DNA of 39,401 nucleotides from a virus. Below are positions 1-34,133 of the stretch, one piece after another (position 1 is the stretch's first letter; each line of letters opens with the position of its first letter). The DNA lies in UHGV virus genome UHGV-0067872; one strand, given 5' to 3'. Below the pieces are notes generated by a model that saw only the letters and a program-made list of their open reading frames with translations, was not told the origin of the DNA and did no database searches. The position numbers were made by a program, and so were the translations under genes.

Positions 1-113
1 GGATTTTGCGGACTGGTACGGATTGGAGCGAACTGATAAATGGTGTCCCCTGCAGACATCTACTTGACGAGGCAGGGGATTGATTGGAATGGTGTTTTTT
101 AGATGTGAAAAAT

Positions 114-137
114 ATTTTACCCGCTATTTTACCCATT
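114..137 (+). repeat. Tandem 12-bp direct repeat ATTTTACCC(G/A)(C/T)T x2, each containing TTTTACCC
   Basis: Read directly: TTTTACCC at 115-122 and 127-134; the same octamer recurs three times near the int start at the other window end. Confidence 0.6.
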
Positions 138-329
138 GGCGCGGCTTAAGAGCTTATTTTTGAATTCACAATGGTCACGATATAACCATCTTGCTCGTCC
201 GTGGATAACTTTGGCTTTTGGCAGGTCGCCGGACTTAATCCGGTCGTAGATGAAGGTTTTACCGAAGCCAGTATCGGCCATGATGAATTTCAAATCAACC
301 AGTGAATCAGGCTGTAGTTCATGTTGCAT
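129..329 (-). CDS. AlpA/Xis-family excisionase-like small DNA-binding protein
   Basis: 66-aa ORF; segment IMADTGFGKTFIYDRIKSGDLPKAKVIHGRARW resembles the AlpA/phage excisionase HTH as I recall it; same strand as int across the window junction. Confidence 0.6.
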   Translation of the reverse strand: MQHELQPDSLVDLKFIMADTGFGKTFIYDRIKSGDLPKAKVIHGRARWLYRDHCEFKNKLLSRANG

Positions 330-374
330 GAGTGCTATCTCCGAATAGGGAATCGAACCTGCAAATCAGGCAAT

Positions 375-394
375 AAAAAACCGCCATCAGGCGG
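375..394 (-). terminator. Putative rho-independent terminator (minus strand)
   Basis: Minus-strand transcript forms CCGCC-UGAU-GGCGG followed by U6; stop codon of the 387..554 ORF lies in the loop. Confidence 0.4.
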
Positions 395-554
395 CTTGGT
401 GTTCTTTCAGTTCTTCAATTCGAATATTGGTTACGTCTGCATGCGCTATCTGCGCCCATATCATCCAGTGGTTATGGCAGTCGTTGATGTCCTCTGCTTC
501 GATAACCCTGTCGAATGGCTCTCCATTCCATTCACCTGTGACTCGGAAGTGCAT
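387..554 (-). CDS. Small hypothetical protein (55 aa), absent from the ORF track
   Basis: Hand translation MHFRVTGEWNGEPFDRVIEAEDINDCHNHWMIWAQIAHADVTNIRIEELKEHQAA; GGAG 7 nt upstream of ATG; ends in terminator hairpin. Confidence 0.3.
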   Translation of the reverse strand: MHFRVTGEWNGEPFDRVIEAEDINDCHNHWMIWAQIAHADVTNIRIEELKEHQAA

Positions 555-661
555 TTATCATCTCCATAAAACAAAACCCGCCGTAGCGAGTTCAGATAAA
601 ATAAATCCCCGCGAGTGCGAGGATTGTTATTCACATTTGACGGCAAGTTGCAGGTTAGCCA

Positions 662-922
662 TTACCGCACCTCCAGTCTCCATACCGCCTGACCAATCCG
701 GCTGGCATATGTATCTTTGGATACTGCTCCGTCTTTAGCCAGCTCCATAAGAATTTTGCGCAAATCTGCCGAACGCCATTCTTCATCAGGAAATTCCTTC
801 TCCATTGCCAACCGCAAATTCCAGGTTGCCATCCTGAATGGATATTCCCCGCCGAGAGCTTTATCTTGCAGGGCAGCCCGGGAACGCATCACCTGCAAAA
901 CCTTCTCTTTTACATCCATCAC
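662..922 (-). CDS. Hypothetical early-region protein (86 aa)
   Basis: ORF with ATGA start/stop overlap to the upstream gene (translational coupling); no recognised domain. Confidence 0.5.
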   Translation of the reverse strand: MMDVKEKVLQVMRSRAALQDKALGGEYPFRMATWNLRLAMEKEFPDEEWRSADLRKILMELAKDGAVSKDTYASRIGQAVWRLEVR

Positions 923-1779
923 TTCACCTCCTGCTGTGGTGCTGCTGGCATTTCACGCCAGTGCGTAACTGAGTGCGGATCCGGATATTCGGTGCCATCA
1001 TCCCAGCGATTGCCATTCCACATTGCAGACCACATCTCACCGTCTTCATACATGACCATTACCGGAATTAACTTATCCGGCATTCGATCACTACAGCTTA
1101 TCCAACTATCCGGAGTTACCGGAACTTGCGGAATGGCTGTCTGCTCTCGAACGTCATTAGGCGCTATAGGTTCTGCTGCCAACTGACTGGCATATTTGTT
1201 AATGGTAACGATAAGCTCTTGCTCAGCCTCATCCAGACAATCACCGATACCTCGCCTGTCACCGTCAAAATCATCGAAATCGGCACGAATCTTGGCAACC
1301 TTCTGGATTGCGGACAACACCTCACTAGGAATTACCGGATAGTTGGTTGACGTTTCCGCGATTTCACGAAAATTATTGGTTGACGAATTCTTGTTTTCCC
1401 GAAAGTTTCCGGACTGAAGCATGGCTGCGCGATAGGCGTTCCAGCCGACAGCTTTTCCGTGTTCAAACGCGCTGTCAAAGTCATCATCCATTTCCATCGC
1501 ATCAGGCACAGATACCGTCTCTGGAGGAGCGGCGTAAAGCGGAGTTACGGTAATTTCGTACTCGTTTATATCCTCGTCGCTGATATTTGCGAAATAGCGA
1601 AGGATGCCTTTCTCTCCACGACTACGAGCGTCAGAGTCCTGAATGATATACGCCACAGGCTCTGCTTCCAGCGATTCCAGCGTAATCCGTGCAAGTTCCA
1701 TTTGTTCACCACGGGTAAGCCCGTTTTCAAGCGGATTTTTAATGAACAATTCAATACGTTCTTTGGTAATAGTGGTCAT
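919..1779 (-). CDS. Phage protein with C-terminal DUF551-like domain
   Basis: 286-aa ORF; C-terminal W-rich segment (WSAMWNGNRWDDG...VTHWREMPAAP) matches my recollection of DUF551. Confidence 0.55.
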   Translation of the reverse strand: MTTITKERIELFIKNPLENGLTRGEQMELARITLESLEAEPVAYIIQDSDARSRGEKGILRYFANISDEDINEYEITVTPLYAAPPETVSVPDAMEMDDDFDSAFEHGKAVGWNAYRAAMLQSGNFRENKNSSTNNFREIAETSTNYPVIPSEVLSAIQKVAKIRADFDDFDGDRRGIGDCLDEAEQELIVTINKYASQLAAEPIAPNDVREQTAIPQVPVTPDSWISCSDRMPDKLIPVMVMYEDGEMWSAMWNGNRWDDGTEYPDPHSVTHWREMPAAPQQEVK

Positions 1780-1985
1780 GTGTTAATCCTCAAAACTTTA
1801 TGCCCGGGCGCAAAAGTACGTGTTTTGTCTTTGCTTATTCGCCACCCGTCTTTACGGGCCTCTTTTGCACAACCAGACCATGACGTACCGATATACTCAC
1901 CGAAGTCTGGCACTGGATATACACCTTCCGTACACTGGCGGCAGTCACAATAGAGATGCATGGTGTAACTTGCGGCAATAGCCAT
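1776..1985 (-). CDS. Small Cys-containing hypothetical protein (69 aa)
   Basis: ORF overlapping neighbours by 4 nt; CDCRQC and GC motifs; function unknown. Confidence 0.45.
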   Translation of the reverse strand: MAIAASYTMHLYCDCRQCTEGVYPVPDFGEYIGTSWSGCAKEARKDGWRISKDKTRTFAPGHKVLRINT

Positions 1986-1986
1986 A

Positions 1987-2526
1987 TCAGTCTCCTTTGA
2001 TGCCAGTGTTTACAACCTGACAAGCCTCTTTGAGCACCCAGTAAACAGCGTCTTTCCATGCTCCGGTTTCGGCTGGCGGATTCTCACGTTTTACCTGCTC
2101 ATAGAAGCGCACTGCTTTAACCAGTCCTTCCGGCACTACTGGCGATGGCTGTTTAGCTTCTAAATCAGCAATTCTGTCAACCACGGCATCGACAGCATCT
2201 GAAAAACTGAAACAGTTACTCCACTCAGACCTATCCCCGGTTGCTGCAAAGTACATATCAGCTAAAGCATACTCAGCATGGTCACGCTCGTTGATGAGTT
2301 GCTCTTCGCTTTTCTCCAGTTCAGCAATACGCTTACTCCCATCCGAGATAACGCCCTCGTAATACTCACGCTGCTCGTTGAGTTTTGATTCAAGTTCACC
2401 GAACTTACGGACAAGATATTCAGCGTTTGTTTCGTTAACCTTTAAATCTCGTGGGATGCATTTACCTTTCAGAAATCCATCCATCTCAATTAGTGTCATT
2501 TGTTTCATTTTTTTCCACTCCGCCAC
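1987..2526 (-). CDS. Ead/Ea22-like early protein (coiled coil)
   Basis: 179-aa ORF (GTG start in track; an internal ATG is also possible); acidic coiled-coil protein typical of lambdoid ea22-type genes; weak recognition. Confidence 0.4.
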
Positions 2527-2665
2527 ATCGCATTCAGATATTTGTTTTGATTCACTGATGGAAAAGAATTTCTCTTAAGCAATTCCTCTCTCGATGGCAT
2601 TGGCTTTACGCGTTGGCGAATAATCATTTCTGCCGGAAGAATGCCGGGATTGTATGCAAGTCCTC

Positions 2666-2947
2666 TCATGATTTACTCTCCGCGAACTGGTCAACAGCCG
2701 TGCTAAGTGATACACCTAAAGTCTCGATATGCTGCTGAATATCCTGTAGTGTCTGCGCCTGAGATAACAGGATTTCACGGTTGCATAACTCTTTAACCAG
2801 ATGCTCAAACTTGCTGTAATAACCGATACGACTTAGTGTTTCTTTCCCTGCATTCTCGCCTTCTTTGATAATTCCTCTTTCACTAAGAATCAGGTCGTGT
2901 TTGGTTCCGGTAATAACGTATTTTCCAAGGTCGATGTTTAGCTTCAT
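2666..2947 (-). CDS. Hypothetical protein (93 aa)
   Basis: ORF in the co-directional early gene string; no recognised motif. Confidence 0.45.
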
Positions 2948-2963
2948 TGTTAATTACTCCATG

Positions 2964-3278
2964 TTAATTTATTCGTATGCCTGCTCTTTCTTCATCGAGT
3001 TTTTTTAGCTTGTATCGCATAGCTCTTACTGAATAAATTGAGCGGCAGGTTGCAATTGCTATTTCTTCTGCGGAGAACTTACCGAAAAGTGATACTTCGG
3101 CTCTTGTCCATCGTCTTCCACGAAGTCGGCTAACAATGTCAGCGCCAATCCTTGTTGCTTTCGCCATTACTGCTTTTTCAGTCCTTTCCAGTTTTTCTGC
3201 GATAACTTCAACTGGCATTGTCGCCGCTACCTCGCGCAAGAAATCTACTTCCCATTTCTCCCATGGAGTCTTTTTCAT
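2964..3278 (-). CDS. Hypothetical protein with two internal Myb/SANT-like repeats (putative DNA-binding)
   Basis: Two internal repeats of the form W..EV.(F/L)....E.IA....R...V (residues ~6-45 and ~57-95). Confidence 0.45.
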   Translation of the reverse strand: MKKTPWEKWEVDFLREVAATMPVEVIAEKLERTEKAVMAKATRIGADIVSRLRGRRWTRAEVSLFGKFSAEEIAIATCRSIYSVRAMRYKLKKLDEERAGIRIN

Positions 3279-3289
3279 AGGCGATACCG

Positions 3290-3772
3290 TTATTTGATAA
3301 GAAGTGAAGGTTTCCCAACTTTGAGTTGAGCGCCGGGGATATTTATTCCTGCTTTTAGTTGGTGTTTGATTGCCAGTTTGTCGGCTTTAATTGTCGTTTC
3401 AAACTCAACGTATTCAGGAGGAAGGGCGCTTGAGTCGATGATTTCTACAGTTTCTGACGGTTTGCGGATTGTTACCTGGTGAATACCTGCTCTAATCTTT
3501 TTCTTGCCAACCATTTCAAGCGATGAGGCTATATATGCCATAATGCTGTCAATCTTATTTTGAATTACTGCGGCTCGCTCATTCAGTGACTTTGCCTCTT
3601 CCTTGAGGCGTTCAGCATAACCAGATTCATTTTTAATAATGGCAAGAAGTTGCTCTATTTTATCGGTAAATTCTCCTTCCATGCCTTCTATTGTGTCAGC
3701 AATCATCTCTGGTTCTAAATCTGAATCCATCAATTTTGCGTATTCATTGGCAATTTCATACAGTTTGCTCAC
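3290..3772 (-). CDS. Gp157-like coiled-coil protein adjacent to recT
   Basis: ORF track gives 3290..3805; I prefer the GTG at 3772 because GGAGG sits 6 nt upstream; family assignment from memory only. Confidence 0.4.
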   Translation of the reverse strand: MSKLYEIANEYAKLMDSDLEPEMIADTIEGMEGEFTDKIEQLLAIIKNESGYAERLKEEAKSLNERAAVIQNKIDSIMAYIASSLEMVGKKKIRAGIHQVTIRKPSETVEIIDSSALPPEYVEFETTIKADKLAIKHQLKAGINIPGAQLKVGKPSLLIK

Positions 3773-4667
3773 TGGCAACCTCCAGTTTCGCTTTGCATTC
3801 TGCATAAATGGCTTGTACGTTCTGCTGCAATTTCATCCCAGATGTCAGGCGATATGCTTCTGCAAAATATCGCTTCAAATCATCCATGTTTTCTGCCTGA
3901 GCCATTTCATCACAAAGAAGTTGTGCTTTTTCCATAATTTCCTGCTGGCGTTTCCGTTCATCTTCGCGGATATCTTCCTCTGATTTGTGCGGCATAACTG
4001 GTTCAGTCCACACACCTTCTTCTTCGTTTAGTACGTGAATAGCACTATCAAGACGTGATGCCTTAGGCCAATACTTGCTTGCACGCTTTACGACCGTCTT
4101 TCGCGCCATCTCATTCCAGTGATTTACCCATGGTCCTTTATCGCTGAATGCCGCCTTGCTTGTTTTCCTTACAGCCTCAATTTCAGCCAGACTCATCTCT
4201 TCCGTTAGATAATCACCTGCTGGCGTCTTAACTGTGCAGTAAACGCCAACGATATCACCACGATCACCGAAGGCGTTGTATTTATGGGTTGGTGCTTTAT
4301 CAAGCCCGTTTGACTCATAGGTATCGTTAGCATGAACAAGTTTTGCCTGACCCCATGAGATAACACCAGACTCCATTGCAATATGGAGCAATCCCATATA
4401 ACTGATATCAAGGCACACCATGCCGTCGCGCGGAACCAGATAAGCCAGTTTGCTAGCCGGGTTTAAGGTGATGCCGATCGCCGCAACATTGATGATGGCG
4501 TTCTGTGCGCTGGTTGGATTTGCCAGTGCCGTTTTAGCCAGGTAATCATTTTTCTGGAAATACTGAATTGCAAACTGGCTTTCCTTAGCCCATGTCACCG
4601 TCTGTTCAGTCAATGCTCCGCAGAATAACTGCTCCTGCTGTTTAACGAATTCAACGATATTGCTCAT
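3756..4667 (-). CDS. recT: RecT-family single-strand annealing recombinase
   Basis: 303-aa ORF with the RecT-like core as I recall it; position matches a lambdoid recombination module. Confidence 0.85.
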   Translation of the reverse strand: MSNIVEFVKQQEQLFCGALTEQTVTWAKESQFAIQYFQKNDYLAKTALANPTSAQNAIINVAAIGITLNPASKLAYLVPRDGMVCLDISYMGLLHIAMESGVISWGQAKLVHANDTYESNGLDKAPTHKYNAFGDRGDIVGVYCTVKTPAGDYLTEEMSLAEIEAVRKTSKAAFSDKGPWVNHWNEMARKTVVKRASKYWPKASRLDSAIHVLNEEEGVWTEPVMPHKSEEDIREDERKRQQEIMEKAQLLCDEMAQAENMDDLKRYFAEAYRLTSGMKLQQNVQAIYAECKAKLEVASEQTV

Positions 4668-4975
4668 GCTGCTTCTCCATAAATGTGTCTGCGTTTGAAT
4701 ATTGCGAAGGCATATTCAGCCTTAACTCTTTCGGTTATTGCATCCCAGAACCATTCAGCGGCTTTTTCCTGATAGTTACAGTCATCATCTTCCAGCCAGT
4801 CGATAGCGTCCTTAGTGTGTTCATCTGGTTTATATGAGCGAAGCATTTCGCTTATTGGGTCGCAACGTTTGCAGAGGCGATCAACTTCACTGTTGATTCG
4901 CTCGTAATCTTCATCAGTAAAACTTGCGATTATTTGCGATATTTCACGCTTATCATTCAGAGTCAGAATCATCAT
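4664..4975 (-). CDS. Hypothetical protein (103 aa) upstream of recT
   Basis: ORF coupled to recT (ATGA overlap); acidic; unknown. Confidence 0.5.
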   Translation of the reverse strand: MMILTLNDKREISQIIASFTDEDYERINSEVDRLCKRCDPISEMLRSYKPDEHTKDAIDWLEDDDCNYQEKAAEWFWDAITERVKAEYAFAIFKRRHIYGEAA

Positions 4976-5060
4976 CTTTCTCCTGTTCTTTGTGCTGATT
5001 GAGCATTTTGTTCATCTGACTAATGAATTCTTCGTCTGACCAGTTATCTGTAAAACTCAT
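4953..5060 (-). CDS. Small acidic ORF (35 aa) in the kil position
   Basis: Hand translation MSFTDNWSDEEFISQMNKMLNQHKEQEKDDDSDSE; ATG overlaps the cIII-like stop; too short for certainty. Confidence 0.2.
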   Translation of the reverse strand: MSFTDNWSDEEFISQMNKMLNQHKEQEKDDDSDSE

Positions 5061-5227
5061 GGACGGCCTTGTTGTTTCAAAATATCCCAAAGCTTTTCGA
5101 GCAAGCTTTTCATTCTTGGTTGTTTAAAGTCTGCTCCGGTTAAAATATTTTTTCGTGAATGCTGTACCGATAAAATCGGGTTGAAAGGGCGAACCGATGC
5201 CGCCCCTGCAATAGCGAACTGTTGCAT
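5057..5227 (-). CDS. cIII: cIII-like protease inhibitor (56 aa)
   Basis: Hand translation MQQFAIAGAASVRPFNPILSVQHSRKNILTGADFKQPRMKSLLEKLWDILKQQGRP; shares MQ.AIAG and SLLE...DIL.Q.G with lambda CIII as I recall it; correct map position. Confidence 0.4.
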   Translation of the reverse strand: MQQFAIAGAASVRPFNPILSVQHSRKNILTGADFKQPRMKSLLEKLWDILKQQGRP

Positions 5228-5317
5228 AGGATGCTCCTTCTGTTTGATTGCATAACGAAAACGCCTCGAGTGAAGCGTTATTGGTATGCGGTAAAGCCGC
5301 CAACAGGCGGCTATTTG

Positions 5318-5551
5318 CTATTGATTCTTTTCAAGAACATCAATGATGTCGTCCGGGTTGTCTCCGTTGTCTTCACAAAATGCTTCGAATTCAGCCCATT
5401 TCGCGCTGATAAAATCAATTACTCTCATTAATTCGTATTCCATATTTTTCTCCAGACCAAAAGAATGCCGCCCATATAGAGCGGCAAGACTATCAAGGAA
5501 TGATTTCCAATAATCAGAACAAGTCGGCTCCTGTTTAGTTACGAGCGACAT
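5318..5551 (-). CDS. Acidic hypothetical protein (77 aa)
   Basis: ORF between cIII-like and N; D/E-rich C-terminus; no recognised domain. Confidence 0.5.
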   Translation of the reverse strand: MSLVTKQEPTCSDYWKSFLDSLAALYGRHSFGLEKNMEYELMRVIDFISAKWAEFEAFCEDNGDNPDDIIDVLEKNQ

Positions 5552-5599
5552 TGCTCCGTGTATTCACTCGTTGGAATGAATACACAGTGCTTACTCGTA

Positions 5600-6070
5600 C
5601 TAATAAAATACCCAATTTTCTGTTTCTTGGTTGTGCCCAAAGTTATATTCAATATCTGGTGTTGATGTATCAATATTCTTCATCCCATCAACAAGAGTTG
5701 ATACAACAGCCAAATCTTGTTTGATTCTCATTAAATGGTATTTCTTCCGGCGCAATAAACTTTCAATGGCAAGTTTCTTCGTTGGGAATGCAAAAGATCT
5801 TTCTGCATTTTTTGCTACTTTCTTAATTGCATATCTATTTCTCCTTTGTTTCCATTCCTGTAACCACTGATTTGGTGCTGGTTTAAAATTAACAATCCAA
5901 TGCGCAGGAACCAACCATGCATAATGCTCTGTCTGATGAAAAGCTATATATTGAAGTGCGAATATTTTTATCCCATCTTCTTCAACTGTCGCCTGGAATC
6001 TCCAGAAAACAGGCATTCCATCATGTTCAGTTTCTGATTCAGGAAAAGGTACGCTCCATGATTTTGTCAT
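5600..6070 (-). CDS. Basic hypothetical protein (156 aa), AT-rich moron
   Basis: ORF directly downstream of N; markedly AT-rich DNA versus flanks; K/R-rich centre; no recognised domain. Confidence 0.5.
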   Translation of the reverse strand: MTKSWSVPFPESETEHDGMPVFWRFQATVEEDGIKIFALQYIAFHQTEHYAWLVPAHWIVNFKPAPNQWLQEWKQRRNRYAIKKVAKNAERSFAFPTKKLAIESLLRRKKYHLMRIKQDLAVVSTLVDGMKNIDTSTPDIEYNFGHNQETENWVFY

Positions 6071-6078
6071 ATCTCACC

Positions 6079-6378
6079 TCAAATAAGTGGTTTGCTGCCT
6101 AATTTCATTTTCTGGCGACCAACACAAGTCACACCCATTTCACTGCGCGGCTTGCGGTAGTAAATACGGTTCTGTTTACGCTCGACTTCTTCTGCCTTCT
6201 TGCAGCGAAGGCTTCCGAGTGATGCTGCTTTATCTGCTCTGACGCAACCAGAGAGCTTTAGCGCAATTTTTCGCGCCAGTCGCTGCTCTTGCATTGCCTG
6301 TTCACGTTGAGTCTGTCTGCGTGCTCTGCGGCGATTTCTGGCGTTATCGTCAGCCAGATATGTAATGACTACTGTCAT
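6079..6378 (-). CDS. N: N-type transcription antiterminator
   Basis: Arg-rich motif NARNRRRARRQTQREQ near N-terminus; C-terminus YYRKPRSEMGVTCVGRQKMKLGSKPLI parallels lambda N as I recall it. Confidence 0.75.
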   Translation of the reverse strand: MTVVITYLADDNARNRRRARRQTQREQAMQEQRLARKIALKLSGCVRADKAASLGSLRCKKAEEVERKQNRIYYRKPRSEMGVTCVGRQKMKLGSKPLI

Positions 6379-6571
6379 GTTGACCTCCGATGATTGACTT
6401 TGGTGATTGGATGGCCGGTGCTGAATTCCGGCTTACTGGTTAGAGCGCCCGCACTACCAGTGACGCTGTCTTGAGGCGCAGATTGGTTACTGCTTGCCAT
6501 GAGCGCTGTTTATACATTGGTCGAGCATCAGCCTGCTCATTCATCCAATCCCAAAGCCAACTACTCTTTGG

Positions 6572-6614
6572 TTCCCGCATTTCGGCGGGACAATCACATC
6601 AATGTTAAAGAGCC
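6572..6614 (-). promoter_or_regulatory. nutL (boxA-like GCTCTTTAA plus boxB hairpin)
   Basis: Minus strand reads TCCCGCCGAAATGCGGGAA; the same hairpin recurs on the plus strand at nutR. Confidence 0.5.
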
Positions 6615-6661
6615 TGCCAATCTGTTCCGTTTGGCTTCCAGCGTCCTGCTGATGGCTAAAG

Positions 6662-6746
6662 AATACTGTAGGTATTTTATTGTGTAAATACCCAAGGTAT
6701 TTGTTTTTGGTGAAATAATGATAAGCAAATGAATACAAAGGATATT
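6662..6746 (-). promoter_or_regulatory. OL operator cluster / PL region
   Basis: Palindromes AATAC-N5-GTATT at 6662-6676 and 6687-6701 and a weaker copy at 6732-6746; same consensus as the OR sites. Confidence 0.5.
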
Positions 6747-6832
6747 TATTTTTTCGCTGTCTGCTTGTTCAGTGATTTTTATGCGGGATATGTGAAGTGG
6801 ATCCCGATAGCTATTGCTGCCGGGATTATGGG

Positions 6833-7201
6833 TTAGTCAGCGAAGGTTAAGACGAGAATTACCTTAATGATGTCTGCTACAACAGACACGGCCATAGATA
6901 AACCAAAGACGATCCAAGCCACAGTGATGTCTTCACTACCATCGTATAGAGTTCCGTAATCACTGGTGTAAGGCGTAAATGTCGCGCCTTGATACAATAG
7001 GTATAAGCTTGATCCATAGAGGATAAATGCAGATATCCCTTGTATTGCTATGATCACAAGAATCATGAAACGAGCTGATCTATGCGCCCAAGCCTGGCTT
7101 ATTTTTTCTGATAGAGATTTCGCAATAAAAGCATGCGCTAAGCCGTAAATTGTCGAGATTGCCAACATCCCAAAAAAGCTTGCTATAGCGGTTCCAACCA
7201 T
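6833..7201 (-). CDS. Small polytopic membrane protein co-transcribed with cI
   Basis: ORF track 6833..7222 (TTG start overlapping cI stop); I prefer ATG at 7201 with AAGGGG SD; three predicted hydrophobic helices. Confidence 0.55.
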   Translation of the reverse strand: MVGTAIASFFGMLAISTIYGLAHAFIAKSLSEKISQAWAHRSARFMILVIIAIQGISAFILYGSSLYLLYQGATFTPYTSDYGTLYDGSEDITVAWIVFGLSMAVSVVADIIKVILVLTFAD

Positions 7202-7218
7202 AATCGCCCCTTGCGTGA

Positions 7219-7935
7219 TCAAACCAGCCTTAGTTTTGTCTCAATTGCAACGCCTATAATCTTGCAGTTTCCATTGATTGGCACGAGAGGCCATGCAGGA
7301 TTAAGTCCCTTGAGGTATTTATTTCCGCCGTCGATTATCAGCTTCTTGAATGTTGCTTCGTTAGAGTCAGAAAGTTTTGCTATGACCAAGCTGCCGTTGA
7401 TCGCCTCCCTTCCGGTATCGAAAAGAACGAATGTTCCCTCTGGAATGCTTAACCCAACCGGTGCCGTCATTGAATCACCTTCCACTTTAAGCCAAAACGC
7501 ATTACCTTGAATATGCGCGTCAGACTCAAGCCAAACATCTATGTCTTTAATGGTGTATGGTTCGCATGCTTCACACCACGAGCCAGCCTGGATACTGCTT
7601 AACACCGGATACCTCTTTCCTGCTCTGTATTCCCCTGCATACCTTACGTTGGCATCGCTCTTAAGGCTTTCTGCCTGTTCTGCAACCTTGGCAGCAATTG
7701 ACTGGCTAAAATCAGCAATTGAGACTTGCAACAATCGTGCAAAACCAGATGCAACCTCAACGTTTAGCGCGTTTCTGCCATTAAGATAATGCCCTACCGC
7801 TCCTTGGGTGATACCCAGTTCATCAGCGATTGAGTATTGGGTTATTCCCAATTCTTTCTTTTTTGACTCATACAAAGCCTTAAGCCGCTTAGCGTCTTCG
7901 AGCTGTTCTGTCGTCAGTGATTTTTTATTTTCCAT
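7219..7935 (-). CDS. cI: cI-type repressor (HTH + S24 LexA-like autopeptidase domain)
   Basis: N-terminus LTTEQLEDAKRLKALYESKKKELG resembles lambda cI; C-terminal domain with AGSWCEACEP and VEGDSM motifs of S24 peptidases; divergent from cro. Confidence 0.9.
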   Translation of the reverse strand: MENKKSLTTEQLEDAKRLKALYESKKKELGITQYSIADELGITQGAVGHYLNGRNALNVEVASGFARLLQVSIADFSQSIAAKVAEQAESLKSDANVRYAGEYRAGKRYPVLSSIQAGSWCEACEPYTIKDIDVWLESDAHIQGNAFWLKVEGDSMTAPVGLSIPEGTFVLFDTGREAINGSLVIAKLSDSNEATFKKLIIDGGNKYLKGLNPAWPLVPINGNCKIIGVAIETKLRLV

Positions 7936-7946
7936 AGCCTAATTCT

Positions 7947-8010
7947 AATAGCTAAGGTACTTAAACTAAAAATACCCTGAGTATTGATTGCTTTGAATAC
8001 CTGTAGTATT
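7947..8010. promoter_or_regulatory. OR operator cluster (three sites) with PRM/PR
   Basis: AATAC-N5-GTATT palindromes at 7971-7985 and 7996-8010 plus a degenerate copy at 7947-7961, about 25 bp apart. Confidence 0.55.
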
Positions 8011-8041
8011 CTTTGTTCATGGTTAATAACGGAGAGTGCAT

Positions 8042-8236
8042 ATGATTCGAATGACACTTGCCGATTACGCCAAAATCCATGGACAGGCTAAAGCAGCCAG
8101 TGACTTTGGTGTAATCCAGTGCGCTATCAGCAAGGCCATTCTGGCAGGCCGTAACATCATGGTTACGGTAAAGCCTGATGGCAGTGTGATTGGAGAGGAA
8201 GTTCGTCCTTTCCCAAGCAACAAGAAAAACAAATAG
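8042..8236 (+). CDS. cro: Cro-like repressor
   Basis: Track begins at GTG 8036; ATG 8042 has GGAG upstream; sequence parallels lambda Cro (DYA..GQ.K.A.D.GV.Q.AI.KAI.AGR...PFPSNKK). Confidence 0.7.
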
Positions 8237-8242
8237 TAACAC

Positions 8243-8287
8243 CGCTCTTTAACAGTCATGGTCATCATTCCCGCCGAAATGCGGGAA
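8243..8287 (+). promoter_or_regulatory. nutR (boxA CGCTCTTTA plus boxB hairpin TTCCCGC-CGAAAT-GCGGGAA)
   Basis: Read directly between cro and cII; hairpin identical to nutL. Confidence 0.55.
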
Positions 8288-8344
8288 TACAACGCGCATA
8301 AGTTGATGCGCATAACTTCTTATTTGTTAAGGAAATACTTACAT

Positions 8345-8638
8345 ATGGTTCGTGCAAACAAACGCAACGAGGCTCTACGAATAGAGAGTGCGTTGCTTAA
8401 CAAAATCGCAATGCTTGGAACTGAGAAGACAGCGGAAGCTGTGGGAGTTGATAAGTCGCAGATCAGCAGGTGGAAGAGGGATTGGATTCCAAAGTTCTCA
8501 ATGCTGCTTGCTGTTCTTGAATGGGGTGTCGTCGACGACGACATGGCTCGATTGGCACGACAAGTTGCTTCGATTCTCACCAATAAAAAACGCCCGGCGG
8601 CAACCGAGCGTTCTGATCAAATCCAGATGGAGTTCTGA
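8345..8638 (+). CDS. cII: cII transcriptional activator
   Basis: From ATG 8345 the protein MVRANKRNEALRIESALLNKIAMLGTEKTAEAVGVDKSQISRWKRDWIPKF... matches lambda CII as I remember it; the track ORF 8258.. is an upstream extension. Confidence 0.9.
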   Translation: MVRANKRNEALRIESALLNKIAMLGTEKTAEAVGVDKSQISRWKRDWIPKFSMLLAVLEWGVVDDDMARLARQVASILTNKKRPAATERSDQIQMEF

Positions 8639-8670
8639 GGTCATTACTGGATCAATCCACAGGAGTCATT

Positions 8671-9516
8671 ATGACAAATACAGCAAAAATACTCAACTTC
8701 GGCAGAGGTAACTTTGCCGAACAGGAGCTAAGAGTGGCTGATATCGATGATGGTTACACCAGATTCGCTAACGAGCTGCTGGAAGCTATCGCAAGTGCCG
8801 ATTTAACCGCTCGCCAGTTGAAAGTTATGCTGGCCTACGTCCGGAAAACATATGGCTTCAATAAGAAAACAGATCGAATAGCCGATGAGCAAATTGCTCA
8901 GTTAACAGGACTGTCAAGGCAGAATGTTAACAAGGCTAAAAAAGAACTGATTTCAATGAATTGCCTGTTTATGGATGGAAATAAAATCGGTGTAAACAGG
9001 GAGGTATCTGCGTGGCAATTCAGCAAGTGTCTCCAAGTTAGCAACTTTGTCTCGAAGTTAGAGACAAAAAATGTCTCCAAATTAGAGACACTCAATGTCT
9101 CGAAGTTAGAGACACACAAAAGACATTCTTTAAAGACAAAAGAAAATATTAATAAACCCCCTATATCCCCCAAAAAAGTTTCTCAGAAGTTCGACCCGCT
9201 AGAAACAGAGTTACCTGATTGGTTATCAGCAGAAACATGGTTGTCGTGGGTTACCTATCGCAAGGAGATAGGTAAGTCGATCAAGTCTAAGCAAAGTGTC
9301 ACTCAGGCTATCAACGTTCTAAGCAGAAGTCTGGAGAAGGGATATACACCTGAAGAAATTATAAACCAGAGCATCGCCAGTGGTTGGCAGGGGATTTTTG
9401 AGCCCAAGACTCCAAAGGGGAAACCTCAACCGAGGCCGCAGCATCGAGCTATGCAGGAAAACTTTGCCGCCAAAGATTACGGACAAACTGAAATGCCTTC
9501 ATGGGCGCAGGAGTGA
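8671..9516 (+). CDS. O: Replication initiator O
   Basis: N-terminus MTNTAKILNFGRGNFA as in lambda O; iterons embedded mid-gene. Confidence 0.85.
   Translation: MTNTAKILNFGRGNFAEQELRVADIDDGYTRFANELLEAIASADLTARQLKVMLAYVRKTYGFNKKTDRIADEQIAQLTGLSRQNVNKAKKELISMNCLFMDGNKIGVNREVSAWQFSKCLQVSNFVSKLETKNVSKLETLNVSKLETHKRHSLKTKENINKPPISPKKVSQKFDPLETELPDWLSAETWLSWVTYRKEIGKSIKSKQSVTQAINVLSRSLEKGYTPEEIINQSIASGWQGIFEPKTPKGKPQPRPQHRAMQENFAAKDYGQTEMPSWAQE
9028..9115 (+). repeat. Origin iterons: four copies of palindromic TGTCTC-N7-GAGACA, followed by an AT-rich tract
   Basis: Copies at about 9028, 9049, 9072 and 9097; AT-rich stretch 9130-9175; encoded peptide repeat VSKLET. Confidence 0.7.
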
Positions 9517-9518
9517 AT

Positions 9519-10412
9519 ATGAATACGACAAATGGTTACAACCTGGCACTGCAAAGGCAACTTGTAGACTCAAAAATCAATGACATTTCTGATCTGAAAC
9601 AGAAACTTGAGTTTAGCAAAATTGGATCAGCATCAGATGGAATGTCAGTTACCAGCACAGTGGAAGAGTGCGAGAAACACGGTAAATATACTTCCTATGA
9701 GAAATATCTGACCATCTCAGGAAAAAGAATTACTTCAAGTAAATCTGAGTGCCCACAGTGCCTTGAGGAGAAAATTCGTAAGAAAGAGATTGAACGTGAG
9801 CAGGCAGAACAAAGAGCAAGACAATCAAAAATTGAATACTTGTTGAATTCTCTCAATATTCCAGAGAGGTTCAAAAATTGCACTCTTCAGAATTATGAGC
9901 CTGTTAACGATGATGCAAAGCGAGTTCTTAAGGTATGCCAGGCATATGCCAGTAAGTGGCCTGAACGCCTTCAAAAAGGTGGCGGACTGGTCATGTGTGG
10001 TAAGCCTGGAACTGGAAAGAACCATCTTGCACTGGCTATCGCTAGGCACGCCATTATCGAGCATCAAAGCTCTGTGATATTTACCACTGCGTTGAAAATT
10101 GCCAGAGAGTACAAATCAACATGGTCTAAGGCCGCAACCAGAACTGAAGAAGAAGTCATTAGGCAATTTACGCATCCTGACTTGTTAATAATCGATGAGG
10201 TTGGCGTGCAGTTCGGCAGTGATGCTGAAAAGCTAATCATGTTCGAAATTATCAACACCAGATATGAATACATGAAGCCAACAATCCTGATTAGTAATCA
10301 GAGCAAAGATGAACTTTCGGCATTCATTGGTGAGCGTGTTATTGACAGAATGAATGATGGCGGCGGGTGCACTCTTGCGTTTACATGGGATAGTTACAGG
10401 AGCAGATCGTGA
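9519..10412 (+). CDS. DnaC/IstB-like AAA+ helicase loader
   Basis: Walker A VMCGKPGTGKNHLALAIA; ATG 9519 with GGAG upstream (track start 9501 is an extension). Confidence 0.85.
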   Translation: MNTTNGYNLALQRQLVDSKINDISDLKQKLEFSKIGSASDGMSVTSTVEECEKHGKYTSYEKYLTISGKRITSSKSECPQCLEEKIRKKEIEREQAEQRARQSKIEYLLNSLNIPERFKNCTLQNYEPVNDDAKRVLKVCQAYASKWPERLQKGGGLVMCGKPGTGKNHLALAIARHAIIEHQSSVIFTTALKIAREYKSTWSKAATRTEEEVIRQFTHPDLLIIDEVGVQFGSDAEKLIMFEIINTRYEYMKPTILISNQSKDELSAFIGERVIDRMNDGGGCTLAFTWDSYRSRS

Positions 10413-10699
10413 CTGGAAAAGAAATCATCCTGGAATATCTGAAAACTCATGAACAATTCTCCCCACATGAATTAGCACTGATCACAGGAATACCAAATAA
10501 CAGAATCGCTCAAGCAGCAAGGCATATGGTGAAACAAGGGCATTTGAGTGTTGTTGAGCGTAAGTGGAAGACGGTTATTTATGCAAAACGCAAAGTGAAG
10601 AAGGAGCCAATTAAAAGAAATCCAGATGGTACGGGGTGGGGATGTGCAAATCCAATGACGGCGTTTATTAATAGGGCGCTTATGGAGGTAAGGCAATGA
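10409..10699 (+). CDS. Hypothetical protein (96 aa)
   Basis: GTG start overlapping loader stop; no recognised domain. Confidence 0.4.
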   Translation: MTGKEIILEYLKTHEQFSPHELALITGIPNNRIAQAARHMVKQGHLSVVERKWKTVIYAKRKVKKEPIKRNPDGTGWGCANPMTAFINRALMEVRQ

Positions 10700-10771
10700 C
10701 CATCTACATCACTGAGCTAATAACAGGCCTGCTGGTAATCGCAGGCCTTTTTATTTGGGGGAGAGTAAATC

Positions 10772-10978
10772 GTGGCTGAGTTGATTTTCTCTGCATTGAG
10801 GCTTCTCGGTGCTCTGTGGATGGTGGCGACGTTCATTGTGGTTGCTGGCTGTTTTGTCCGGTTGGTAGGCGAAGGTAAAGACCTGGGGAATATGCTTTTA
10901 GGTAGCATTTTCCTGTGGGGGATTATCGGTGTTATGCCTGTCGCTGTAGCAAAAATGGCGTGGCGTTTTGTGAGTTGA
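10772..10978 (+). CDS. Small hydrophobic protein (68 aa)
   Basis: Two hydrophobic helices; GTG start; weak. Confidence 0.35.
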   Translation: MAELIFSALRLLGALWMVATFIVVAGCFVRLVGEGKDLGNMLLGSIFLWGIIGVMPVAVAKMAWRFVS

Positions 10979-10995
10979 ACTGAGGGTAAGTATCG

Positions 10996-11307
10996 ATGGA
11001 CGAATCAAGAAAGCAGTTTGAAGAATGGTTTGAAAATTACACCGGATGTGATCCTAAAAATAAAATATACGCCAATATGGTTGAGATGTATTGGCAAGCG
11101 TGGCAGGCATCGCGAGCAGCTATTGAACTGGATATCGACTGGCCCGAATCGAATGACGACTTTTGGAAAGATGGTGAAGAAGGTGCTTATGCGATGGGGC
11201 ATGAGGATGGGAAGGACAAAACGGTAATTGCAGTAATGAAAGCTATCAGAGCCGCTGGAATTAAAGAGAAGAATTTCGATGAAGCAAACAATCTTCCTCC
11301 GAACTAA
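10996..11307 (+). CDS. Hypothetical nin-region protein (103 aa)
   Basis: ORF upstream of ninB; acidic; unknown. Confidence 0.45.
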   Translation: MDESRKQFEEWFENYTGCDPKNKIYANMVEMYWQAWQASRAAIELDIDWPESNDDFWKDGEEGAYAMGHEDGKDKTVIAVMKAIRAAGIKEKNFDEANNLPPN

Positions 11308-11689
11308 GCAACAACAGCAAGCTGCAATAAATGCCATCCTCGCAACACCACTCGATAAAGACAAGCCAGTCACCATCCGCATTACTGACTACAAGCGCAA
11401 CCTTGACCAGAACGCAAAATTTCACGCGATGGTCGCAGATATCGCTAGGCAAGTTAAGTGGCGCGATAAATGGTTAAAACCGGAACAATGGAAGGTTTTG
11501 TTGATCAGCGGTCATGCAGTGGCTACAAAGCAGGAAGCTGATGTTTTGCCCGGCCTTGAAGGCGAATACGTCAACATTCGCGAAAGTAGCGCGCAGATGA
11601 GTGTGAAGCGTATGGCAAGTCTGATTGAGTACACGACAGCATGGGCTATTGGTCAGGGCGTCAGATTTACCGACAGGAGGTACGAATGA
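11279..11689 (+). CDS. ninB: NinB (Orf) recombination mediator
   Basis: Motifs [22 protein letters not shown] and order before ninE/ninF match lambda NinB as I recall it. Confidence 0.8.
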
Positions 11690-11862
11690 GACGACAGCGA
11701 CGAAGTATCACCGACATAATCTGTGAAAACTGCAAATACCTTCCAACGAAACGCTCCAGAAATAAACGCAAGCCAATCCCGAAAGAATCTGACGTAAAAA
11801 CCTTCAACTACACGGCTCACCTGTGGGATATCCGGTGGCTAAGACATCGTGCGAGGAAATGA
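11686..11862 (+). CDS. ninE: NinE-like small protein
   Basis: Internal ATG at 11686 (ATGA overlap with ninB) gives [30 protein letters not shown]..., matching my memory of lambda NinE. Confidence 0.5.
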
Positions 11863-12224
11863 CAATGGATTATTCACAGTTAAGTGATTTTGAAATTAAC
11901 GTGGCGGTATTCGAAGCCATTCATAACGGATCACCGGATTACAAAGAAGGTGAGAATGGCGCGATGGTGTTTATCTCATTTGAGGGAGACATTGTAAACG
12001 GAGACGCAGTTGAAGTAGAAGTTGAGCGCGGATCATTTAACCCATGCGTAAACCCAGCAGACGCATGGCCGATTATTGAAAAATACAGGATTAGCATTAT
12101 CAATCTCGATGAAGACGAGTGGGGTGCACGCGGTGCGGCCTACTGTAAATCTAAGCGAGCTATACATGAAAATCCCCTCCGCGCCGCCATGATTGTCTTT
12201 CTCATGATGCAGAGAATCCAATAA
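11859..12224 (+). CDS. Hypothetical nin-region protein (possibly DUF2591/NinX-like)
   Basis: ATG 11859 overlaps preceding stop; family assignment tentative. Confidence 0.45.
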
Positions 12225-33860: not shown

Positions 33861-33959
33861 TAGTTCACCATAAAAAATTCATTGACTCATACTGAGTGTG
33901 AGTGAATAATCAAACTACAAAAAGTGAGATTATGAGTTTTTTAAAAACAGGAGTGCATA

Positions 33960-34133
33960 ATGACTGAAAAGATATCTTCCATCAAGCCGCGTCAGGTTCG
34001 TTTTACAGAAAAGGTTGATTCACATATCCGCGAATCAGCAAAAAGATGCCATAGGTCAATTCAGGCAGAGATAGCTTATCGAATGGAGTTATTGATGAAA
34101 CTTGAGGCAAAGGGCGATGTTGTCATCCAATAA
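33960..34133 (+). CDS. Arc/CopG-like ribbon-helix-helix repressor (57 aa), absent from the ORF track
   Basis: Hand translation MTEKISSIKPRQVRFTEKVDSHIRESAKRCHRSIQAEIAYRMELLMKLEAKGDVVIQ; AGGAG SD; beta-strand then two helices. Confidence 0.5.
   Translation: MTEKISSIKPRQVRFTEKVDSHIRESAKRCHRSIQAEIAYRMELLMKLEAKGDVVIQ

What the first reader, a model, noticed from the sequence alone, without database searches (positions are those of the whole stretch)
5318..6070. AT-rich two-gene moron between N and cIII: basic 156-aa protein plus acidic 77-aa protein
The ORF at 5600-6070 is the most AT-rich coding segment of the early-left operon and directly follows N, where lambda carries ral/sieB-type accessory genes. 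It encodes a K/R-rich protein with no recognisable domain. The next gene (5318-5551) encodes a strongly acidic small protein. A perfect 9-bp inverted repeat (GTGTATTCA-N10-TGAATACAC) lies in the 48-bp gap between them. A basic/acidic pair in a PL-driven early slot could be an anti-restriction or anti-defence factor (possibly a DNA mimic), a toxin-antitoxin-like pair, or a host-takeover module.
Basis: inference. Interest (0 to 1): 0.6.

Follow-up and report, generated by a model that had tools for sequence, protein, structure and literature searches.

The report
Orphan early gene, PreS sRNA, micro-gene
The supposed basic/acidic gene pair is really three unrelated, independently swapped pieces of a lambda-like phage's early operon: a widespread early gene of unknown function (HK97 gp45), a copy of the known lambda small RNA PreS with its hairpin and terminator, and a 41-residue acidic micro-protein gene.

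Summary
The ORFs, the low GC and the inverted repeat are all present as described. The "two-gene module" reading does not hold.

- **orf156 (5600-6070, minus strand)** is a real gene. It is 99-100% identical to HK97 gp45 and 933W L0079 and belongs to phrog_1636. It starts 8 nt after N, with no predicted terminator between them. A confident AlphaFold model (pLDDT 95) has no relative among solved structures. Its function is unknown.
- **The inverted repeat** is a 12-bp RNA hairpin. It is conserved, with compensatory changes, in lambdoid phages that lack orf156. It abuts the 5' end of a copy of the lambda Hfq-dependent sRNA PreS/LPR1 (5556-5459). The first 55 nt, including the seed, are identical to lambda. 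The sRNA ends in a P22-type intrinsic terminator.
- **The 77-aa ORF** reads through this sRNA and its terminator. The real gene is most likely the last 41 codons (5318-5443). It has its own ribosome-binding site, and its homologues are annotated as 41-aa genes in lytic phages.
- **The two proteins assort independently.** orf156 is in 598 of 5426 complete E. coli genomes and the micro-gene in 15, and each occurs with other neighbours.

The toxin-antitoxin and obligate-pair readings are rejected. An early counter-defence or host-takeover role for orf156 alone remains possible but is untested.

The parts
6079..6378 (-). Antiterminator N (context). Its stop codon lies 8 nt upstream of the orf156 start.
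   Evidence: phrog_271, E 1.6e-36. Weak match to Pfam N_peptide. Annotated as N in ON470589.
5600..6070 (-). orf156: a real protein-coding gene, equal to HK97 gp45 and 933W L0079. Function unknown. The predicted fold is a beta-sheet plus a long helix, with no solved relative.
5558..5585 (-). Conserved 12-bp RNA hairpin (5' arm 5585-5574, loop 5573-5570, 3' arm 5569-5558). It ends 2 nt before the sRNA 5' end.
   Evidence: Fold z = -5.4. 98% identical to the lambda ral-ea10 spacer. Four stem alleles; 98% of cells paired; 8 of 12 pairs changed on both sides. Retained in the lambda lpr1 deletion design.
5459..5556 (-). Orthologue of the PreS/LPR1 sRNA (98 nt). The 5' 55 nt are lambda-type, including the seed at 5521-5505. 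The 3' end is P22-type.
   Evidence: The first 55 nt are identical to lambda LPR1, as delimited by the cloning and deletion primers in Table S5 of bioRxiv 10.1101/2024.10.31.621285.
5457..5486 (-). Intrinsic terminator of the sRNA (equivalent to lambda tL2a): TGCCGCTCTATATGGGCGGCA followed by TTCTTTTGG.
   Evidence: Terminator scan: 8 pairs, 6 of them G-C. About 92% identical to the P22/L sequence upstream of gene 17. Annotated as a terminator in phage L.
5318..5443 (-). Real downstream gene: a 41-aa acidic micro-protein (net charge about -9). SD GGAG at 5453-5450, ATG at 5443-5441.
   Evidence: phrog_15754 (43 positions) matches only residues 36-75 of the 77-aa ORF. Homology with P22 stops at this ATG, which aligns with the gene 17 start. 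P0036 starts at this Met. Annotated as 126-nt CDSs in Erwinia phage Bue1 and in SECphi18.
5444..5551 (-). 5' extension of the 77-aa ORF call: most likely not coding.
   Evidence: The SD lies only 2 nt from the ATG and sits in the hairpin/sRNA. The ATG is ATA, followed by an in-frame TGA, in P22/L. The same ATG gives a 29-aa ORF in 933W. An intrinsic terminator lies inside it.
5260..5312 (-). Two terminator-like hairpins between the micro-gene and cIII (tL2 cluster, context).
   Evidence: About 80% identical to the lambda ea10-cIII spacer. HK620 annotates tL2A and tL2B in the equivalent place.
5057..5227 (-). cIII (context).
   Evidence: phrog_550, E 1e-22.

Best explanation
The interval holds three adjacent cassettes of the lambdoid leftward early (pL) operon. 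They assort independently and are not a gene pair.

1. **orf156** fills the slot just after N, where lambda has sieB, orf28 and ral. No terminator is predicted between N and orf156. I infer that it is made on the same first transcript as N, before N-dependent read-through is needed. It belongs to a phage-only family found in temperate and virulent phages. Its predicted fold has no solved relative. My committed guess, at about 0.25 confidence and based on inference only, is a non-essential early accessory protein. It would use its conserved basic sheet/helix face to bind a nucleic acid or a conserved host or defence protein, to the benefit of the incoming or induced phage.

2. **A covarying 12-bp hairpin followed by an orthologue of lambda PreS/LPR1.** In lambda this Hfq-dependent sRNA is made in the lytic cycle and ends at terminator tL2a. 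It raises translation of the host sliding-clamp gene dnaN and represses alaS. The copy here keeps the lambda 5' part and seed exactly and ends in a P22-type terminator. I infer that the hairpin marks the processing point that creates the sRNA 5' end, and/or protects the 3' end of the upstream mRNA.

3. **A 41-aa acidic micro-protein gene** with its own ribosome-binding site fills the slot where lambda has ea10 and P22 has gene 17. The 77-aa ORF arises only because the frame stays open across the sRNA and its terminator.
For: - **Mosaic boundaries.** Homology to 933W covers 5494-6132 at 99.2%. Homology to lambda covers 5494-5590 at 98%. Homology to P22/L covers 5437-5556 (5437-5498 at about 92%) and ends at ATG 5443, which aligns with the gene 17 start.
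- **Hairpin independent of orf156.** The hairpin/sRNA segment is in 412 phage records, including lambda, 434, HK620 and SfI, which lack orf156.
- **PreS identity.** The cloning and deletion primers in Table S5 of the PreS preprint place the sRNA +1 at GAGCAATG, right after the hairpin, and define the seed. The window is identical over the first 55 nt and the whole 17-nt seed.
- **Hairpin covariation.** 98% of cells are paired, against 22-54% when the partner is slid. Eight of 12 pairs change on both sides.
- **Terminator** inside the 77-aa ORF.
- **41-aa gene.**
- **Independent assortment.**
- **orf156 family and fold.**. Its contexts are always early or DNA-metabolism regions, with no constant neighbour.
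Against: - Nothing was measured in this phage: neither the sRNA, its ends, Hfq binding, nor the translation start sites.
- GenBank and PGAP annotate the 77-aa ORF, and the frame is open in the copies I examined.
- The terminator's U tract is short and interrupted (UUCUUUU).
- In the predicted fold of this recombinant allele, part of the seed pairs with the P22-type insert. This could reduce its activity.
- This allele combination is rare: 1 of 112 sampled loci.
- The function proposed for orf156 rests only on position, timing and charge pattern. No homology, structural match or paper supports it.
Confidence: 0.75

Rival explanations
1. One reading: orf156 and the acidic protein form one functional module. 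This would be a toxin-antitoxin-like pair, or an anti-defence factor with its partner, or a DNA mimic.
For: The two lie next to each other on the same strand in this phage and have opposite net charges. One IMG/VR locus has the same arrangement. The genome of Erwinia phage phiEa2809 holds both a fold relative of orf156 and a homologue of the micro-gene.
Against: - Prevalence is 598 against 15 of 5426 E. coli genomes.
- Each gene occurs with other neighbours.
- The genes next to micro-gene homologues in lytic phages are unrelated to orf156: hhalign probability below 1%.
- No HMM hit to the orf156 family in the 49 kb around the phiEa2809 homologue.
- 156 nt holding an sRNA gene and an intrinsic terminator separate the two genes.
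- No significant PADLOC or Pfam match to a toxin or antitoxin family.
Confidence: 0.04
2. The 77-aa ORF is truly translated, so the PreS region is a dual-function RNA (an sRNA plus the 5' part of an mRNA).
For: The ATG at 5551 is preceded by GGAG. The frame is open for 77 codons and is annotated as such in GenBank and RefSeq. Two variants keep the frame open.
Against: - The SD-ATG spacing is 2 nt, and both lie in or next to the hairpin.
- P22/L have ATA in place of ATG, with a TGA at codon 7.
- Lambda and 933W give a 29-aa ORF from the same ATG.
- Transcripts not antiterminated by N would end inside the ORF.
- All distant homologues start at the internal Met.
- Thirty-six sense codons without a stop are expected by chance roughly one time in five (my estimate).
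Confidence: 0.08
3. orf156 serves the phage's own DNA transactions (a recombination, replication or transcription accessory, perhaps DNA- or RNA-binding) rather than acting on host defences.
For: - Family members sit among RecT, YqaJ, SSB, Sak4-like (AAA_24), ParB-like, RusA and methylase genes, or just before xis-int.
- Conserved basic residues lie at about positions 79-117, on a strand plus a long helix.
- Members occur in virulent phages.
Against: There is no constant neighbour and no match to any DNA-binding family. hhalign against an integrase arm-binding domain and against HK620 HkaQ was negative. Most lambdoid phages lack the gene, so it is dispensable.
Confidence: 0.3
4. orf156 is a true moron expressed from the prophage, for example for superinfection exclusion or lysogenic conversion.
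For: It is AT-rich relative to its neighbours. It is usually followed closely by an intrinsic terminator in other genomes. The same slot in lambda, P22 and HK620 holds sieB-type exclusion genes.
Against: No sigma-70-like promoter lies between pL (about 6688-6660) and the gene. It shares strand and transcription unit with N, which the repressor shuts off in a lysogen. Relatives occur in virulent phages.
Confidence: 0.08

Closest known systems
Lambda sRNA PreS (LPR1), bioRxiv 10.1101/2024.10.31.621285
   Same: Same position in the pL operon, right after the conserved hairpin and ending at the first tL2-type terminator. The first 55 nt are identical, including the 17-nt seed that the authors deleted or mutated.
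   Different: The 3' 32 nt of lambda PreS (the tL2a hairpin) are replaced by a 43-nt P22-type tail and terminator, giving 98 nt against 87. This combination was seen in 1 of 112 sampled loci. Expression and Hfq binding were not tested here.
HK97 gp45 / 933W L0079 (phrog_1636)
   Same: 99-100% identical protein, also placed directly after N and before the hairpin/PreS element.
   Different: None of substance. These are annotated as hypothetical proteins, and I found no paper on them.
Lambda ral / sieB and P22 ral-orf78-orf87 accessory slot after N
   Same: orf156 occupies exactly this interval, bounded by N and the conserved hairpin. The slot's known occupants act on restriction (Ral) or exclusion (SieB).
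   Different: No sequence or profile similarity to Ral, SieB or HK620 HkaQ. A shared function is only inferred from position.
P22 gene 17 / lambda ea10 slot
   Same: The 41-aa gene uses the same terminator-SD-ATG junction as P22 gene 17, and homology ends at the start codon.
   Different: The coding sequences are unrelated. The product has 41 aa, against 103 (gp17) and 122 (Ea10).
Type II toxin-antitoxin pairs and acidic DNA-mimic anti-restriction proteins (Ocr, ArdA)
   Same: Opposite net charges in the two products, and a strongly acidic small protein.
   Different: The genes are not co-inherited, are separated by an sRNA gene and a terminator, and match no such family. The acidic product has only 41 aa.

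Membership tests
PreS/LPR1 sRNA (lambda) | Located in the pL operon between the post-N accessory gene(s) and the ea10-type slot, directly 3' of the conserved hairpin | tested here: met
   Window 5494-5590 is 98% identical to lambda 33950-34045, which lies between ral and ea10. The primers place +1 just after the hairpin.
PreS/LPR1 sRNA (lambda) | Seed sequence TGTTCTGATTATTGGAA and the 5' body | tested here: met
   17 of 17 seed bases and 55 of 55 5' bases are identical.
PreS/LPR1 sRNA (lambda) | Full-length conservation as used by the authors (at least 92% identity, at most 3 gaps) | tested here: not met
   The 3' 32 nt are replaced by a 43-nt P22-type tail.
PreS/LPR1 sRNA (lambda) | Rho-independent terminator with a U tail at the 3' end | tested here: met
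   8-bp stem with 6 G-C pairs, followed by TTCTTTTGG. By prediction only.
PreS/LPR1 sRNA (lambda) | Hfq binding, lytic-cycle expression, dnaN activation | not testable with these tools
   Needs Northern, RIL-seq or reporter assays.
HK97 gp45 / 933W L0079 family (phrog_1636) | Full-length match to the family profile | tested here: met
   E 2.7e-112 over residues 1-156 against profile positions 1-156 of 156. 99.4% identity to HK97 gp45.
41-aa micro-protein family (phrog_15754) | Match confined to a roughly 41-aa unit that starts at its own Met | tested here: met
   Residues 36-75 of the 77-aa ORF match profile positions 2-41 of 43. 41-aa CDSs in Bue1 and SECphi18.
Toxin-antitoxin pair | Co-inheritance of the two genes | tested here: not met
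   598 against 15 of 5426 genomes, and each gene has alternative neighbours.
Toxin-antitoxin pair | Tightly linked bicistronic unit | tested here: not met
   A 156-nt spacer holds an sRNA gene and an intrinsic terminator.
Toxin-antitoxin pair | Similarity to known toxin or antitoxin families | tested here: not met
   No significant Pfam or PADLOC match, and no NCBIfam match.
Moron (own promoter and terminator, expressed from the prophage) | Own promoter upstream of the gene | tested here: inconclusive
   The consensus scan finds none between pL and the gene. A scan cannot exclude a weak or non-sigma-70 promoter.
Moron (own promoter and terminator, expressed from the prophage) | Deviant base composition and a downstream terminator | tested here: met
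   GC 36% against 40-49% in the neighbours. The terminator lies 113 nt downstream here and directly after the gene in other genomes.
DNA-mimic anti-restriction proteins (Ocr, ArdA type) | Sequence or fold similarity; an extended acidic surface that mimics DNA | tested here: inconclusive
   No sequence match.

The most novel reading that the evidence does not exclude
The HK97 gp45 / 933W L0079 family would be an unrecognised class of immediate-early phage effector with a new fold, acting in counter-defence or host takeover. It is made on the very first pL transcript together with N and PreS. It is carried by about 11% of complete E. coli genomes, including the main Stx phages. Separately, the covarying hairpin would be the processing determinant that releases PreS from the pL transcript.
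Probability: 0.3. Interest if true: 0.6.

Novelty: new member of a known kind. Interest (0 to 1): 0.35.

Why it matters
1. **Annotation.** GenBank and RefSeq call a 77-aa protein that most likely does not exist. It masks a copy of a functional phage sRNA and its terminator.
2. **PreS variation.** PreS occurs as recombinant alleles, here a lambda seed with a P22 terminator. It is always preceded by a hairpin whose stem covaries. This gives a concrete, testable lead on how the sRNA 5' end is made. The PreS preprint does not mention RNase E or RNase III.
3. **A target for experiment.** orf156 is a widespread gene of unknown function. It is placed early in the pL operon of HK97 and of the Shiga-toxin phages, and it has a confidently predicted fold with no solved relative. 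HK97 gp45 is easy to delete.

Tried and rejected
- **Family and structure scans gave nothing useful.**
  - Pfam, NCBIfam, PADLOC and PDB-sequence scans of both ORFs returned only chance-level hits.
  - A permissive Pfam scan of 94 family members showed no recurrent family.
  - Rfam found nothing in 4500-7500, so PreS has no Rfam model.
- **First structure model was unusable.** The model built from 20 close homologues had pLDDT 60. It was replaced by a 94-sequence model with pLDDT 95.
- **Fold searches.**
  - Foldseek-PDB: best E 0.48.
  - BFVD: only uncharacterised phage proteins.
  - The afdb50 library was not available.
- **HK620 HkaQ, which sits in the same slot, is unrelated to orf156**.
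- **Conserved pairing in distant phages rejected.** Neighbours of micro-gene homologues in SECphi18 and Bue1 are unrelated to orf156. There is no HMM hit in the 49 kb around the phiEa2809 copy.
- **Literature searches found nothing on orf156.** I searched for L0079, phrog_1636, HK97 gp45 and lambdoid anti-defence hotspots. The accessory-gene screen of PMC12373910 does not contain either protein. The EHEC sRNA HnrS (PMC13502914) is a different RNA.

Full report
**What the window is.** The window is a lambdoid phage. Bases 5250-6120 are 100% identical to Escherichia phage vB_EcoP-611R6 (ON470589, genus Lederbergvirus). The early-left operon runs on the minus strand in this order:
- cI, 7219-7935
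- a promoter-like site, about 6688-6660
- N, 6079-6378
- the 156-aa ORF, 5600-6070
- the 77-aa ORF, 5318-5551
- cIII, 5057-5227
- RecT, 3756-4667

**Checking the observation.** Both ORFs exist at the stated coordinates, with a 48-nt gap between them.
- orf156 has 36.1% GC (GC3 28%), the lowest of the ten early-region genes I measured. The 300-nt window 5551-5850 has the lowest GC in bases 1-12000.
- orf156 is only mildly basic: 21 K+R against 18 D+E, pI 9.07. Its basic residues cluster around positions 74-117.
- The 77-aa ORF is acidic (pI 4.27).
- The 9-bp inverted repeat is real (5585-5577 and 5566-5558). As RNA it extends to a 12-bp stem with a 4-nt loop. The 91 nt around it fold at -30.7 kcal/mol, with z = -5.4 and no shuffle of 200 as stable.

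**The repeat belongs to a conserved non-coding element.**
- Window 5494-5590 is 98% identical to phage lambda 33950-34045, the spacer between ral and ea10.
- The same segment is present in 412 phage records. These include lambda, 434, HK620, HK446, SfI and many Stx phages that lack orf156.
- A review (PMC12197685) and a preprint (bioRxiv 10.1101/2024.10.31.621285) place the Hfq-dependent sRNA PreS (LPR1) exactly there. It is about 88 nt, its 3' end is terminator tL2a, and it is processed to about 68 nt. It is expressed only in the lytic cycle. It activates translation of host dnaN, represses alaS, and supports phage DNA replication.
- The preprint's primer table fixes the sRNA 5' end at GAGCAATGTCGC. 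This lies immediately after the 3' arm of the hairpin, and the full lpr1 deletion leaves the hairpin in place. The table also defines the seed as TGTTCTGATTATTGGAA.
- In the window the sRNA runs from 5556 to 5459 (98 nt). Its first 55 nt, with the whole seed (5521-5505), are identical to lambda.
- After that point the lambda tL2a hairpin is replaced by a P22-type tail and terminator: TGCCGCTCTATATGGGCGGCA followed by TTCTTTTGG, at 5486-5457. This tail is about 92% identical to the sequence upstream of P22 and L gene 17. Phage L's annotators marked a terminator there.
- Rfam has no model for this RNA.

**The hairpin is under structural selection.** A motif scan of IMG/VR for the start of PreS returned 119 stretches. 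Of these, 112 had enough flanking sequence to analyse.
- Immediately upstream of the sRNA start there are at least four different stem sequences: lambda type GTGTATTCATTC/GAGTGAATACAC, P22 type TATAGCAGATT/AGTCTGCTATG, and two others.
- All fold into 11-12-bp hairpins that end 1-2 nt before the sRNA.
- On an alignment of 17 distinct sequences, 98% of cells form standard pairs, against 22-54% when the partner is slid by 1-3 columns. Eight of 12 pairs show changes on both sides. The covariation score is 0.68, against 0.21 in shuffles.
- I infer that the hairpin defines the sRNA 5' end by processing, and/or protects the 3' end of the upstream mRNA. The preprint mentions neither RNase E nor RNase III, so this step is open.

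**The 77-aa ORF is over-extended.** Its ATG (5551) lies at +6 of the sRNA. The GGAG before it is only 2 nt away and sits at the base of the hairpin.
- P22 and L have ATA at that position and a TGA at codon 7 of the same frame.
- In 933W and lambda the same ATG opens a 29-codon frame.
- An intrinsic terminator lies inside the ORF.
- phrog_15754, a 43-position profile, matches only residues 36-75.
- Homology with P22 ends at ATG 5443-5441, which aligns with the gene 17 start and is preceded by GGAG and a 6-nt spacer.
- One database homologue (P0036) starts at this Met.
- Homologues with 50-61% identity are annotated as 126-nt (41-aa) genes in Erwinia phage Bue1 and in Dhillonvirus phages such as SECphi18.
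- The real gene is therefore most likely 5318-5443, encoding a 41-aa peptide with net charge of about -9.

**The two proteins are not a pair.**
- In 933W, orf156 (L0079) is followed by ea10. In HK97 (gp45) it is followed directly by the terminator and cIII.
- Among the IMG/VR loci, orf156 sits upstream of PreS in 18 cases. Downstream there is ea10, gene 17, nothing before cIII, or once the micro-gene.
- Outside the lambda-type layout, homologues with 55-75% identity occupy several positions:
  - after N (Cronobacter, a metagenome contig);
  - just before xis-int (Pectobacterium, Brenneria);
  - ahead of a RecT module (Rosenbergiella);
  - first in an operon with a ParB-like gene (metagenome contigs, BASEL phage Bas81).
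- orf156 occurs in 598 of 5426 complete E. coli genomes. The micro-gene occurs in 15.
- In those 15 genomes the micro-gene can follow a DUF7446 gene or sieB instead of orf156.
- Genes next to the micro-gene homologues in lytic phages are unrelated to orf156. No family member lies within the 49 kb around the phiEa2809 copy.

**What orf156 is.**
- It matches phrog_1636 over its full length (E 2.7e-112). It has no meaningful Pfam, NCBIfam, PADLOC or PDB-sequence match.
- Close homologues are confined to Enterobacterales.
- A profile search of 1.84 billion representative proteins found 87 relatives, mostly 130-150 aa. They fall in phrog_1636, phrog_13631 and phrog_25384, all of unknown function.
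- With a 94-sequence alignment, AlphaFold2 gives a confident model: pLDDT 95.4, pTM 0.82. It has strands at 19-30, 33-46, 50-55 and 83-86, short helices, and a 33-residue helix at 98-130.
- BFVD returns 13 matches at E below 1e-3. All are uncharacterised phage proteins. They include phages of Erwinia (phiEa2809, family Ackermannviridae), Delftia, Achromobacter, Rhizobium, Tenacibaculum and Cellulophaga.
- Distant members lie among recombination, replication and methylase genes, with no constant neighbour.
- I found no paper on L0079, HK97 gp45 or the PHROG.

**How it most likely works.**

*Shown by the sequence:* orf156 starts 8 nt after N, behind a good ribosome-binding site. No terminator-like site lies between pL and the PreS terminator.

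*Inferred:* N, orf156 and PreS form the first pL transcript, made before N-dependent read-through is needed. orf156 would therefore be an immediate-early product. The slot it fills carries Ral and SieB in lambda, P22 and HK620. The gene is dispensable, since most lambdoid phages lack it. Its conserved residues include a basic face (R79, K84, K87, R91, R107, K109, R115).

My committed but weak guess (about 0.25) is an early accessory protein that binds nucleic acid or a conserved host or defence component. A role in the phage's own DNA transactions is about equally likely. Lysogen-expressed exclusion is unlikely.

**Comparison with what is known, and novelty.**
- The hairpin/PreS/terminator block is a known lambda element in a rare recombinant form: 1 of 112 sampled loci has the lambda hairpin and seed joined to a P22 terminator.
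- orf156 is a known but uncharacterised ORF.
- The micro-gene belongs to a small uncharacterised family.
- No feature of a toxin-antitoxin pair or an obligate pair is met.
- The useful new points are the re-annotation, the covarying hairpin as a lead on PreS biogenesis, and the flagging of HK97 gp45 as an easily tested orphan with a confident fold that has no solved relative.

Noticed in passing
window 6833-7222 (-): A 129-aa ORF whose sequence looks like several transmembrane segments. Its start overlaps the cI stop codon (7219-7222), so it is probably co-transcribed with cI in the lysogen, in the position of lambda rex. No PADLOC or NCBIfam match.
   Followed up: partly
window 6573-6612 (-): A nutL-like site upstream of N: boxA-like GCTCTTTAA (about 6612-6604) and a boxB-like hairpin TCCCGC-CGAAAT-GCGGGA (6590-6573). 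Read from the sequence.
   Followed up: no
window 6079-6132 (-): Homology to 933W starts at 6132, which corresponds to the 933W N stop codon. The last 17 or so codons of this phage's N are therefore read from what is N-L0079 spacer in 933W. A mosaic junction lies inside the end of N.
   Followed up: no
window 6440-6580 (-): The GenBank record of the identical phage annotates a 46-aa 'repetitive proline-rich cell wall protein 2' CDS in the N leader region. It is probably a spurious call.
   Followed up: no
L012 (P22) and L011 (phage L), upstream of gene 17; IMG/VR loci L022-L140: The hairpin allele, the seed type and the terminator type of the PreS locus recombine with one another. The commonest combination (lambda hairpin, lambda seed, tL2a) was seen 80 times, and about 12 other combinations were seen. 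P22-type PreS has a different seed region (CGTTCTGGTTATTGGAG).
   Followed up: partly
window 5459-5521 (-): In the predicted fold of this recombinant PreS allele, part of the seed pairs with the P22-type insert. The seed may be less accessible than in lambda.
   Followed up: no
L146 (Erwinia phage phiEa2809) 107401-107523, and BFVD entry A0A0A0YXB3: This virulent phage has both a 41-aa homologue of the micro-gene and a fold relative of orf156. No orf156-family HMM hit was found within 49 kb of the micro-gene.
   Followed up: partly
window 4953-5090 (-): A 45-aa acidic ORF (pI 4.2) overlaps the end of cIII and the start of the 103-aa ORF, in the position where lambda and P22 have kil. It had no PADLOC or NCBIfam match and was not scanned against Pfam or PHROGs.
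   Followed up: no
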